Assembly (NCBI GenBank): GCA_039000725.1
Contig: JAWBNO010000002.1
Coordinates: 2,071 to 66,070 of the forward strand
DNA length: 64,000 nucleotides
Direction of reading: 5' to 3'
Origin: Candidatus Aenigmatarchaeota archaeon
GTDB lineage: Archaea; Aenigmatarchaeota; Aenigmatarchaeia; CG10238-14; SpSt-28
The stretch's first letter is position 1. Each line of letters begins with the position of its first letter. Of this stretch, positions 33,463-33,543 are shown in pieces. Under the pieces are notes generated by a model. That model worked only from the letters and a program-made list of their open reading frames with translations, was not told the DNA's origin and did not search any database. The translations under genes were made by a program, and so were the position numbers.

Positions 33463-33543
33463 TCGGGTGAAAAGTAGAGATCAAAAGCTACCCCGTTAAT
33501 CATTAAATCATTCGGGAGCGACATTCTCATTCTCTACTTTTCA
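33463..33543 (-). other. BHB mini-intron 2 in 23S rRNA (81 nt, domain V hairpin loop)
   Basis: 4-bp helix GGGU/ACCC, bulges CAU and GAA, perfect 12-bp inner helix GAAAAGUAGAGA/UCUCUACUUUUC. AT-rich interior. Confidence 0.7.

What the first reader, a model, noticed from the sequence alone, without database searches (positions are those of the whole stretch)
33463..33543. Second 23S mini-intron (81 nt) with a perfect 12-bp inner helix in a domain V hairpin loop
Seen in sequence: an AT-rich segment sits inside GC-rich rRNA. It is closed by GAAAAGUAGAGA/UCUCUACUUUUC, followed outward by a perfect 4-bp helix GGGU/ACCC and 3-nt bulges CAU and GAA, which is the BHB geometry. Predicted splicing leaves CCCGG-GUCAAAGAAAU-CCGGG. 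That resembles the short ...ACAGAAAU... hairpin loop found at this place in other archaeal 23S rRNAs as I recall them. It has the same architecture as the other two inserts, which suggests one mechanism and possibly intron mobility within the gene.
Basis: partly seen in the sequence, partly recalled or inferred. Interest (0 to 1): 0.65.

Follow-up and report, generated by a model that had tools for sequence, protein, structure and literature searches.

The report
23S rRNA mini-intron carrying guide RNA
An 83-base insert in the large ribosomal RNA gene of an uncultured Aenigmatarchaeota-like archaeon has the hallmarks of a protein-spliced archaeal intron. Its conserved core is laid out like a C/D-box methylation guide RNA aimed at the same ribosomal RNA, a combination I found described only for a tRNA intron.

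Summary
The insert is real. It lies in the helix-84 hairpin loop of a minus-strand 23S rRNA gene (window 32702-35997).

The better register has:
- a central helix CGGG/CCCG;
- bulges UCA and AAA;
- a 13-bp inner helix;
- an 83-nt intron at 33544..33462.

Its removal gives CCCGGGUC|AGAAAUCCGGG, the exact loop of intron-less archaea. The same cutting rule reproduces the sizes of the two other inserts in this gene and restores conserved sequence there.

Twelve distinct homologs from 21 contigs keep the BHB unchanged, while 10 of 12 inner-helix pairs show compensatory changes.

Its 50 nt parse as C box, 12-nt guide, D' box, 4-nt spacer, C' box, 12-nt guide, D box. That pattern occurs once in 64 kb (0.02 expected).
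- The D guide pairs over 11 bp with 23S about 160 nt downstream (E. coli 2434-2444), placing the target at U2438. Shuffle test p is about 0.02.
- The D' guide has no significant target.
- One subclade has a mismatch next to the target.

No RNA data were available, so splicing, circularisation and methylation are inferred. I rate it a new variant of known kinds.

The parts
32702..35997 (-). Host gene: archaeal 23S rRNA
   Evidence: Rfam RF02540, 2520.6 bits, model 1-2987
33547..33552 (-). 5' strand of the mature helix-84-like stem, CCCGGG. Its last four bases, CGGG (33550-33547), form the exon half of the BHB central helix in the precursor.
   Evidence: cmscan structure line; invariant in 12 homologs
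33544..33546 (-). 5' bulge UCA. The predicted cut is between C33545 and A33544.
   Evidence: BHB rule validated on the H93 intron and on the L038 intron in the peptidyl-transferase centre. The third base is U in L128.
33462..33544 (-). Predicted intron, 83 nt
   Evidence: Size equals the model's excess of 87-4. Removal gives CCCGGGUCAGAAAUCCGGG, the loop of intron-less archaea.
33531..33543 (-). Inner helix, 5' arm UGAAAAGUAGAGA
   Evidence: 13-nt perfect inverted repeat; 10 of 12 aligned pairs have compensatory changes
33524..33530 (-). C box-like AUGAGAA (AUGAUAA in most homologs)
   Evidence: Pattern search; alignment. Position 6 pairs with D box position 1: A-U in 11 homologs, G-C in L128.
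33512..33523 (-). D' guide, 12 nt, UGUCGCUCCCGA. Target unknown.
   Evidence: 10 of 12 positions invariant. There is no significant 23S match. The best match is 8 bp including 2 G-U pairs to UCGGGGGU at 33325-33318.
33508..33511 (-). D' box-like AUGA (CUGA in L119, UUGA in L128)
33504..33507 (-). D'-C' spacer UUUA, variable in every position among homologs
33497..33503 (-). C' box-like AUGAUUA
33485..33496 (-). D guide, 12 nt, ACGGGGUAGCUU
   Evidence: 11 contiguous pairs (1 G-U) with 23S at 33333-33323. The complementarity runs 13 nt into the D box (I9, 21, 53). 38 of 2000 shuffled guides do as well.
33481..33484 (-). D box-like UUGA (CUAA in L128)
33468..33480 (-). Inner helix, 3' arm UCUCUACUUUUCA
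33464..33467 (-). Intron half of the central helix, CCCG
   Evidence: Invariant in all 12 homologs while the adjacent arm varies freely
33461..33463 (-). 3' bulge AAA. The predicted cut is between A33462 and A33461.
   Evidence: Same rule as above. There is no proper outer helix beyond it (1 bp), so the motif is the relaxed HBh' type.
33451..33456 (-). 3' strand of the mature stem, UCCGGG
33323..33333 (-). Predicted target of the D guide in the same 23S, AAGCUACCUCG (E. coli 2434-2444). The base opposite guide position 5 is U33329, equivalent to E. coli U2438.
   Evidence: E. coli numbering was checked against the alignment in the supplement of PMC4644070.

Best explanation
The segment 33544..33462 (minus strand) is a bulge-helix-bulge intron in the helix 84 loop of 23S rRNA. 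Its 50-nt core is a C/D box-type guide RNA.

Proposed course (steps 1 to 5 are all inferred, not shown):
1. The guide is transcribed about 160 nt ahead of its target.
2. L7Ae, Nop5 and fibrillarin assemble on the C/D and C'/D' motifs.
3. The D guide pairs with AAGCUACCUCG (E. coli 2434-2444, next to the peptidyl-transferase ring). It either directs 2'-O-methylation of U2438 or simply holds that strand during folding.
4. The splicing endonuclease cuts after the second base of each 3-nt bulge (UC|A and AA|A).
5. RtcB joins the exons to give the universal loop UCAGAAA and closes the intron into an 83-nt circle. The circle would be a 13-bp stem capped by a 7-nt loop, with the C/D core at the other end.

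Shown here: the motif geometry, its conservation and covariation, the exact restoration of the consensus loop, the box spacing, and the guide-target complementarity.
For: Intron:
- The covariance model places 83 extra nt inside a conserved hairpin loop.
- A 4-bp helix flanked by two 3-nt bulges, each 3' of its helix strand, is followed by a 13-bp helix.
- Cutting after the second bulge base gives CCCGGGUCAGAAAUCCGGG. This is the loop found in intron-less L046 and L091 and in Pyrobaculum.
- The same rule reproduces the other two insert sizes exactly (50 and 94 nt) and restores GCCCAC|AUUGACC and the universal GUCGUG|AGACAG.
- In L038 the rule removes an extra 32-nt insert from GGGGAU|AAUGGGC, giving the sequence of its relatives. 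Those sites lie in the peptidyl-transferase centre, so the lineage must excise such inserts.
- Across 12 distinct homologs, 10 of 12 inner-helix pairs have changes on both sides and 98% of cells are paired. No shuffle of 500 reaches this, and slid controls give 27-65%. CCCG+AA and the exon half never change.

Guide RNA:
- ATGA-N16-TGA-N4-10-TGA-N16-TGA occurs once on both strands of 64 kb, with 0.02 expected. The match spans exactly the 50 nt between the helix arms.
- All four GA dinucleotides and both 12-nt spacings are kept in 11 of 12 homologs. The D'-C' spacer and the linkers vary at every position.
- C position 6 with D position 1, and the next pair, change together in L128: A-U to G-C and A-U to U-A.
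- The D guide forms 11 bp with the host 23S.
- Pair 9 is G-U in most homologs. It is A-U in L128 through a guide change, and G-C in six loci through a target change.
- The same rRNA stretch is paired by RNA-seq-derived sRNAs of other archaea: Iho sR425 and Pca sR16 contain GGGGUAG(C). Their box variants, such as AUGA and GUGAUUU, resemble those here.
Against: - There are no RNA data, so neither splicing nor methylation is shown.
- The outer helix of a strict hBHBh' motif is missing (1 bp).
- The minimum-energy fold prefers the mature exon stem over the BHB central helix.
- The boxes are degenerate: AUGAKAA, UUGA, AUGA, AUGAUUA.
- L128 has CUAA for the D box and a 15-nt second spacer.
- The linker between the helix and the C box varies from 2 to 5 nt, so the terminal helix is not a textbook K-turn stem.
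- The D-guide match alone is only p about 0.02.
- Six loci carry a guide G-to-A change that mismatches the target at position 4, next to the methylation site. The same change improves a U-G to a U-A pair in an alternative intramolecular rod.
- The D' guide, the best-conserved part, has no significant target in 23S or elsewhere in the window.
- No Rfam C/D family matches.
- No fibrillarin, Nop5, L7Ae, EndA or RtcB gene lies in the window. This is uninformative, since the window is only part of a genome.
Confidence: 0.6

Rival explanations
1. It is a plain BHB mini-intron with no guide function. It is excised and discarded, and the C/D-like layout is fortuitous or a decayed remnant. The core would be conserved for another reason, for example a rod-like fold or a protein site needed for splicing.
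For: - RNAalifold draws the core as a rod in which the two 'guides' pair with each other (GCU/AGC and CCCG/CGGG). The G-to-A change in six loci turns a U-G into a U-A pair there.
- The boxes are degenerate and L128 lacks a proper D box.
- The D' guide has no target.
- The D-guide match is only p about 0.02.
- There is no Rfam hit.
Against: - If only structure mattered, the core should covary as the outer helix does. Instead it is conserved in sequence while the helix is replaced four times.
- In L128 both partners of one rod pair changed without compensation (C-G to A/A), and three loop-proximal rod pairs are broken.
- Four UGA motifs at exact 12-nt guide spacing are expected 0.02 times per window.
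- C position 6 and D position 1 covary.
Confidence: 0.22
2. It is a retained expansion segment. The 83 nt would stay in mature 23S as an arm on the helix 84 tip, possibly a K-turn arm bound by L7Ae. The BHB-like flanks would be incidental.
For: - The site is a peripheral hairpin loop rather than the catalytic core.
- The minimum-energy fold keeps the mature exon stem with the insert as a hairpin on top.
- The insert is fixed in every close relative found: 18 rRNA contigs, none without it. That scan could not have detected an allele with the UCAGAAA loop.
Against: - The intron-side half of the central helix plus the bulge (CCCGAA) is invariant although it adjoins a freely varying helix. This is what a processing motif predicts, not a spacer arm.
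- The geometry and bulge composition match three other inserts of the lineage that sit in the peptidyl-transferase centre and must be removed.
- Excision restores the universal loop to the base.
Confidence: 0.08
3. The segment is excised at the BHB but the exons are not rejoined. The mature 23S would then be fragmented at helix 84, and at H89 and H93, as with bacterial intervening sequences.
For: Nothing in the sequence requires ligation. Three to four cuts per molecule would demand efficient ligation. An RtcA gene, but no RtcB gene, is in the window.
Against: From established knowledge: known archaeal BHB cleavage products (2',3'-cyclic phosphate and 5'-OH ends) are substrates of RtcB. All described archaeal rRNA introns are ligated. 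Breaks in the H93 and H89 loops at the catalytic centre would be unusual.
Confidence: 0.05

Closest known systems
The C/D box guide RNA in the intron of archaeal pre-tRNA-Trp (Haloferax, Pyrococcus sR50; Clouet d'Orval et al. 2001, Singh et al. 2004, as summarised in PMC7714728 and PMC7994747)
   Same: A BHB-bounded intron whose body is a C/D box sRNA that targets its own host RNA. The excised intron is expected to be circular.
   Different: Here the host is 23S rRNA, not a tRNA. The target lies about 160 nt downstream in the precursor, outside the BHB, so guide pairing and BHB formation do not compete. A 13-bp stem separates the BHB from the C/D core. The boxes are more degenerate. Only one of the two guides has an identifiable target.
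Small ORF-less archaeal 23S rRNA introns, e.g. the 56- and 54-nt introns of Staphylothermus marinus (Kjems and Garrett 1991; from my own knowledge, the paper is cited in PMC7714728)
   Same: Short BHB introns in domains IV/V of 23S without a homing endonuclease gene. The exon strand changes partner between precursor and mature rRNA.
   Different: To my knowledge no guide-RNA content has been reported for those. The insertion site (helix 84 loop, E. coli 2306/2307) is not among the classical sites I recall. The lineage is DPANN rather than Crenarchaeota.
[quoted passage not shown] Ignicoccus sR425 and Pyrobaculum calidifontis sR16 (supplement of PMC4644070)
   Same: About 50 nt from the C box to the D box, 12-nt guides, and a D guide containing GGGGUAG(C) that pairs with CUACCCC near E. 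coli 2437-2447. Internal boxes of the AUGA / UGAUUU type also occur.
   Different: Those are independent genes with canonical terminal boxes, and their predicted target is C2441 rather than U2438. This one is embedded in the target molecule's own gene and released by splicing.
Intron-encoded snoRNAs of eukaryotes
   Same: The guide RNA is produced from an intron of a host gene, giving coupled expression.
   Different: [quoted passage not shown] Here the host is the rRNA itself and release is by the tRNA splicing endonuclease.

Membership tests
Archaeal bulge-helix-bulge (splicing-endonuclease) intron | Two 3-nt bulges on opposite strands separated by a 4-bp helix, each bulge 3' of its helix strand | tested here: met
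   CGGG-UCA-[13 bp] ... [13 bp]-CCCG-AAA, read from the sequence. Invariant in 12 homologs.
Archaeal bulge-helix-bulge (splicing-endonuclease) intron | Both flanking helices present (strict hBHBh') | tested here: not met
   The inner helix is 13 bp, but the outer helix is a single C-G pair. The motif is the relaxed HBh' type, which per PMC5829648 only (alpha-beta)2 and epsilon2 endonucleases cut. The endonuclease type of this organism was not determined.
Archaeal bulge-helix-bulge (splicing-endonuclease) intron | Removal at the symmetric bulge positions restores the conserved mature sequence | tested here: met
   The product CCCGGGUCAGAAAUCCGGG has the loop of L046, L091 and Pyrobaculum. 83 nt equals the covariance model's excess. 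The same rule works for the H89, H93 and L038 inserts.
Archaeal bulge-helix-bulge (splicing-endonuclease) intron | Cleavage by EndA, exon ligation and intron circularisation by RtcB | not testable with these tools
   No RNA data. No EndA or RtcB gene was found among the 50 ORFs scanned: and gene calls on the identical contigs. About a dozen listed ORFs were not scanned. RtcA is present.
Archaeal C/D box sRNA | C (RUGAUGA) and D (CUGA) boxes plus internal C'/D' boxes | tested here: inconclusive
   AUGAGAA / AUGA / AUGAUUA / UUGA. All four GA dinucleotides are present in 11 of 12 homologs, but positions 5-7 of C and position 1 of D deviate. The deviations are mutually compensating (A-U for G-C). 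L128 has CUAA for D.
Archaeal C/D box sRNA | 12-nt spacing between C and D' and between C' and D, with a short D'-C' spacer | tested here: met
   12 + 12 nt with a 4-nt spacer. One match in 64 kb against 0.02 expected. Kept in 11 of 12 homologs.
Archaeal C/D box sRNA | Guide complementary (9 bp or more, the criterion of PMC4644070) to rRNA or tRNA, with the target opposite position 5 upstream of D/D' | tested here: inconclusive
   D guide: 11 bp to 23S, position 5 is an A-U pair at U33329, p about 0.02. Six loci have a mismatch at position 4. D' guide: no significant target. No 16S was available.
Archaeal C/D box sRNA | K-turn and K-loop bound by L7Ae, then Nop5 and fibrillarin; methylation activity | not testable with these tools
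   Motif searches for the three proteins found nothing in the window. The rest of the genome was not available.
Archaeal C/D box sRNA | Match to a curated Rfam C/D family | tested here: not met
   Best C/D hits have E = 2.1-8.7, far below gathering scores. Rfam C/D families are guide-specific, so this says little.
rRNA expansion segment (retained) | Insert kept in mature rRNA, with no conserved processing motif at its base | tested here: not met
   The base of the insert is an invariant BHB. Retention itself could not be tested.

The most novel reading that the evidence does not exclude
A clade of Aenigmatarchaeota-like archaea has turned a 23S rRNA intron into the carrier of a C/D box guide RNA that acts on its own host rRNA next to the peptidyl-transferase centre. 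The guide would be made in 1:1 ratio with its target and ahead of it during transcription. It would then be released as a BHB-generated circular C/D RNA. That would be an archaeal counterpart of eukaryotic intronic snoRNAs located inside the rRNA itself, and a defined route to circular C/D sRNAs.
Probability: 0.5. Interest if true: 0.72.

Novelty: new variant of a known kind. Interest (0 to 1): 0.62.

Why it matters
BHB introns in archaeal rRNA are usually seen as selfish or neutral passengers. Many carry homing endonuclease genes, and the short ones have no known content.

Intron-borne guide RNAs are the rule in animals. In archaea I found them reported only for tRNA introns: the 2021 review PMC7994747 lists no other intronic context, and no paper in the searched library combines 'D box sRNA' with 'rRNA intron'.

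If confirmed, a guide RNA inside an rRNA intron that targets the same rRNA would do three things:
- It would give a function, and so a reason for fixation, to an rRNA mini-intron.
- It would show a natural BHB route to circular C/D box sRNAs, whose circularisation mechanism is stated to be unclear (PMC7994747).
- It would offer a compact cis system for studying co-transcriptional guide-assisted rRNA folding.

There is also a practical point. rRNA genes of this lineage carry three to four mini-introns in domain V, and these will disturb rRNA-based annotation and phylogeny if they are not removed.

Tried and rejected
Only the register was off.
It still gave three close relatives (L119, L086, L038) and intron-less comparators.
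- Metagenome scan with AAAGAAATCCGGGGTAGAG: it gave 18 rRNA contigs, all with the intron. In hindsight this pattern cannot match an allele with the UCAGAAA loop, so the absence of intron-less close relatives is not evidence.
- Target of the D' guide: I searched 23S, the whole window on both strands, and 21 related loci. Nothing was significant. Apparent perfect hits are the intron itself or lie antisense to the rRNA. No 16S is present in any locus.
- Rfam at a permissive threshold on the 98-nt region: only hairpin-type noise.
- Other C/D sRNA genes in the window: none, with canonical or relaxed patterns.
- Genes for fibrillarin, Nop5, L7Ae, EndA and RtcB: none found, by motif search and by Pfam scans of 40 ORFs.
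- Similarity of this intron to the other two: not significant.
- Supplement of PMC6009581: not held as text.

Full report
**Context**

The window carries an archaeal 23S rRNA gene on the minus strand at 32702-35997 (RF02540, 2520 bits). It sits in a very AT-rich genome, with flanks at 23-35% GC. No 16S or 5S gene lies within the 64 kb.

The gene is 3296 nt against a 2987-position model. In domain V the covariance model shows three large excesses:
- 87 nt against 4 in a hairpin loop at model position about 2400 (the finding);
- 52 nt against 2 in the helix 89 loop;
- 95 nt against 1 in the helix 93 loop.

There is also an ordinary GC-rich 30-nt hairpin in domain VI. All three large excesses coincide with dips in GC.

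**The observation**

The RNA reads ...CUCACCCGGGUCAUGAAAAGUAGAGA-[50 nt]-UCUCUACUUUUCACCCGAAAGAAAUCCGGGGUAGAG.... The inverted repeat is perfect over 13 nt (I6).

However, CGGGU and ACCCG are complementary over five bases, so a second register exists: CGGG/CCCG with bulges UCA and AAA and a 13-bp inner helix. Cutting after the second bulge base in this register removes 83 nt, exactly the model's excess. It leaves CCCGGGUC|AGAAAUCCGGG.

The loop UCAGAAA on a G-U-closed stem is what intron-less archaea have at this place:
- CCCGGUCAGAAAUCGGG in L046 and GUCCGGUCAGAAAUCGGAC in L091;
- GGCGGGUCAGAAAUCCGCC in Pyrobaculum calidifontis (supplement of PMC4644070).

I therefore place the intron at 33544..33462.

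By alignment to E. coli, the site lies between positions 2306 and 2307 in the helix 84 loop. The E. coli sequence was checked. The helix number is from my own knowledge.

**Validation of the cutting rule within the lineage**

- H93 insert: GUCG-UGA-[CCAUAGUUG...CAACUAUGG]-CGAU-AAA. The rule gives a 94-nt intron (33119..33026) and the universal GAACGUCGUG|AGACAGUUCGG.
- H89 insert: GCCC-ACA-...-AGGU-AAA. The central helix is 3 bp plus a mismatch here and a perfect GGGC in L128. The rule gives 50 nt (33289..33240) and GCCCAC|AUUGACC, the length and near-sequence of GCCCAUAUCGACC in other archaea.
- L038 carries a fourth insert, GGGG-AUA-[GAUAGGC...GCCUAUC]-CUCC-AGA. Its removal gives GGGGAU|AAUGGGC, exactly the sequence of L119 and L086, which lack it.

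These sites lie in the peptidyl-transferase centre, so the inserts must be removed, and one rule explains all of them.

**Relatives**

A scan of species-representative genomes gave three close relatives. L119 is 93% identical in 23S and is labelled an Infirmifilum MAG, probably a mis-binned contig. L086 and L038 are about 88% identical and labelled Candidatus Aenigmatarchaeota. A metagenome scan added 18 rRNA contigs.

All of them carry the insert at the same site, giving 12 distinct sequences of 83-88 nt. Three patterns stand out:
- The exon flanks, both bulges (apart from A to U at the third base of the 5' bulge in L128) and CCCG never change.
- The inner helix exists in four unrelated versions: GAAAAGUAGAGA, GAAAAACUCCC, GAAGAUUCUCU and GGAAGGGACUCU, each with a matching 3' arm.
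- On the alignment, 10 of 12 helix pairs show changes on both sides and 98% of cells pair. No shuffle of 500 reaches the observed values, and slid controls give 27-65% pairing.

**The core**

Between the arms lie 50 nt that stay nearly constant while the helix is replaced. They parse as follows:

| Element | Sequence | Window position (minus strand) |
|---|---|---|
| C box-like | AUGAGAA (AUGAUAA in most homologs) | 33530-33524 |
| D' guide | UGUCGCUCCCGA | 33523-33512 |
| D' box-like | AUGA (CUGA in L119) | 33511-33508 |
| Spacer | UUUA | 33507-33504 |
| C' box-like | AUGAUUA | 33503-33497 |
| D guide | ACGGGGUAGCUU | 33496-33485 |
| D box-like | UUGA | 33484-33481 |

This is the architecture of an archaeal C/D box sRNA.
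- The pattern of four UGA motifs with these spacings occurs once on both strands of the window, exactly here, with 0.02 expected. Relaxed patterns find no other credible candidate.
- The spacer and the linkers to the helix vary at every position, while the boxes and guides do not.
- Relative to RUGAUGA/CUGA, position 6 of C (A) and position 1 of D (U) have both changed and can still pair. So can U and A in C'/D'.
- In L128 this pair is G-C and the next pair is U-A instead of A-U.
- RNA-seq-derived sRNAs in the supplement of PMC4644070 show comparable internal boxes, e.g. Pca sR16 with AUGA and GUGAUUU.

**Targets**

The D guide pairs with AAGCUACCUCG of the same 23S (33333-33323). That is about 160 nt downstream in the precursor and corresponds to E. 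coli 2434-2444. The pairing is 10 Watson-Crick pairs plus 1 G-U, and the complementarity continues two bases into the D box (I9, 21, 53). The base opposite guide position 5 is U33329, equivalent to E. coli U2438. I derived the numbering by aligning the target by eye to the E. coli row of the alignment.

Shuffled guides do as well in 38 of 2000 trials, so this match alone is only suggestive.

Across homologs:
- Pair 9 is G-U in most, A-U in L128 (guide change) and G-C in six loci (target change).
- Those same six loci have a guide G-to-A change that mismatches position 4.
- The same stretch is paired by the D guides of Ignicoccus sR425 and Pyrobaculum sR16, which contain GGGGUAG(C) and by my reading place position 5 at C2441. 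The alignment block around E. coli 2427-2526 is dense with predicted methylation sites.

The D' guide is the most conserved element but has no significant target in 23S, in the window or in the related loci. Its best pairing is with the directly adjacent UCGGGG(G/A)U: 8 bp including 2 G-U here, 6 bp in most relatives. That would place position 5 at G2446. Adjacent dual targets are common (PMC4644070), but this pairing is weak. A target in 16S or a tRNA cannot be checked, because no 16S is linked in any locus.

**Points against**

- The outer helix of a strict hBHBh' motif is missing. Only broad-specificity endonucleases cut such motifs (PMC5829648), and the enzyme type here is unknown.
- RNAfold prefers the mature exon stem to the BHB helix, so a conformational switch or protein help is implied.
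- RNAalifold can draw the core as a rod in which the two guides pair with each other. The G-to-A change fits that rod, but L128 breaks several rod pairs without compensation.
- L128 has CUAA for the D box and a 15-nt second spacer.
- No Rfam C/D family matches.
- No gene for the C/D proteins, EndA or RtcB lies in the window. An RtcA gene does.

**Literature**

The tRNA-Trp intron is the described case of a BHB intron that is a C/D guide for its host (PMC7714728, PMC7994747). The 2021 review of genomic contexts lists tRNA introns only. It also says that C/D termini usually lack BHB motifs and that the circularisation mechanism is unclear. No paper in the searchable library combines 'D box sRNA' with 'rRNA intron'. 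Subscription literature was not covered.

**Verdict**

| Claim | My probability |
|---|---|
| The insert is a BHB-type intron | about 0.85 |
| It is a C/D-type guide RNA, given that it is an intron | about 0.7 |
| Both together | about 0.6 |

It is a new variant of known kinds: an rRNA mini-intron and an intron-borne C/D guide. It is of real interest to people who work on archaeal RNA processing, but it rests entirely on sequence analysis.

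Noticed in passing
window 33240-33289 (-) and 33026-33119 (-): Two further BHB-type mini-introns lie in the same 23S, in the H89 loop (50 nt) and the H93 loop (94 nt). They share a 29-nt stretch that is 23/29 identical (UUGGGGUC.CUUUCC.A.GA.AUAGC). No shuffle of 2000 reaches that score, so they look like paralogs, which points to duplication or transposition of a mini-intron within the gene. The motif GGGGUC.CUUU is kept in relatives, and its role is unknown.
   Followed up: partly
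L038 about 3100-3131; L136 and L142 at the same rRNA site; L046: Relatives carry extra inserts between the equivalents of E. coli U2449 and A2450 (GGGGAU|AAUGGGC, directly 5' of A2450-A2451). L038 has a 32-nt BHB mini-intron. L136 and L142 have a long insert that encodes a LAGLIDADG-like motif (..LGALIGDGS..). The groundwater Aenigmatarchaeota L046 has about 350 nt there.
   Followed up: partly
window 33300-33322 and 33205-33225 (-): The peptidyl-transferase ring of this lineage deviates from the consensus. It has GGGG(G/A)UAAUGGGC for GGGGAUAACAGGC (C2452U, A2453G; A2448G in the window). It has GCGUAGCUGUCGG for ACCUCGAUGUCGG (including A2503C and C2501A). These differences are conserved in all relatives, so this is not a pseudogene.
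   Followed up: no
window 29076-29177 (-): A tRNA with anticodon CAU has a 29-nt intron at 37/38. Its central helix CUCA/UAAG has one mismatch and its 3' bulge is AAA. Rfam finds the tRNA and ARAGORN does not. The intron contains GAUGAG, UUGA and AUGAUAA strings but is too short for a full C/D RNA.
   Followed up: partly
window 63913-64000 (-): A tRNA is cut by the window end. From the spacing of its arms it also appears to contain an insert. I did not analyse it.
   Followed up: no
whole window; 23S at 32702-35997: The 23S gene is not linked to 16S or 5S within 64 kb, and no 16S lies on any related contig. The rRNA genes are unlinked in this lineage.
   Followed up: partly
L119 (JBEULP010000040.1, labelled Infirmifilum sp. 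MAG): This 5.5-kb contig is 93% identical to the window's 23S and has the same three introns. The next relatives are labelled Aenigmatarchaeota. It is probably a mis-binned rRNA contig.
   Followed up: no
window 51669-52685 (-): An RNA 3'-terminal phosphate cyclase (RtcA) gene (Pfam RTC, 2.9e-76). It is the only RNA end-healing or ligation-related gene seen in the window.
   Followed up: no
window 32808-32837 (-): A 30-nt GC-rich hairpin (UCUCUCUGCUGGGGAAACCCGGUAGAGAGA) is inserted in domain VI relative to the model. It has no BHB and looks like an ordinary variable helix.
   Followed up: no
window 3627-3874 (-): An archaeal RNase P RNA (RF00373, 113 bits).
   Followed up: no
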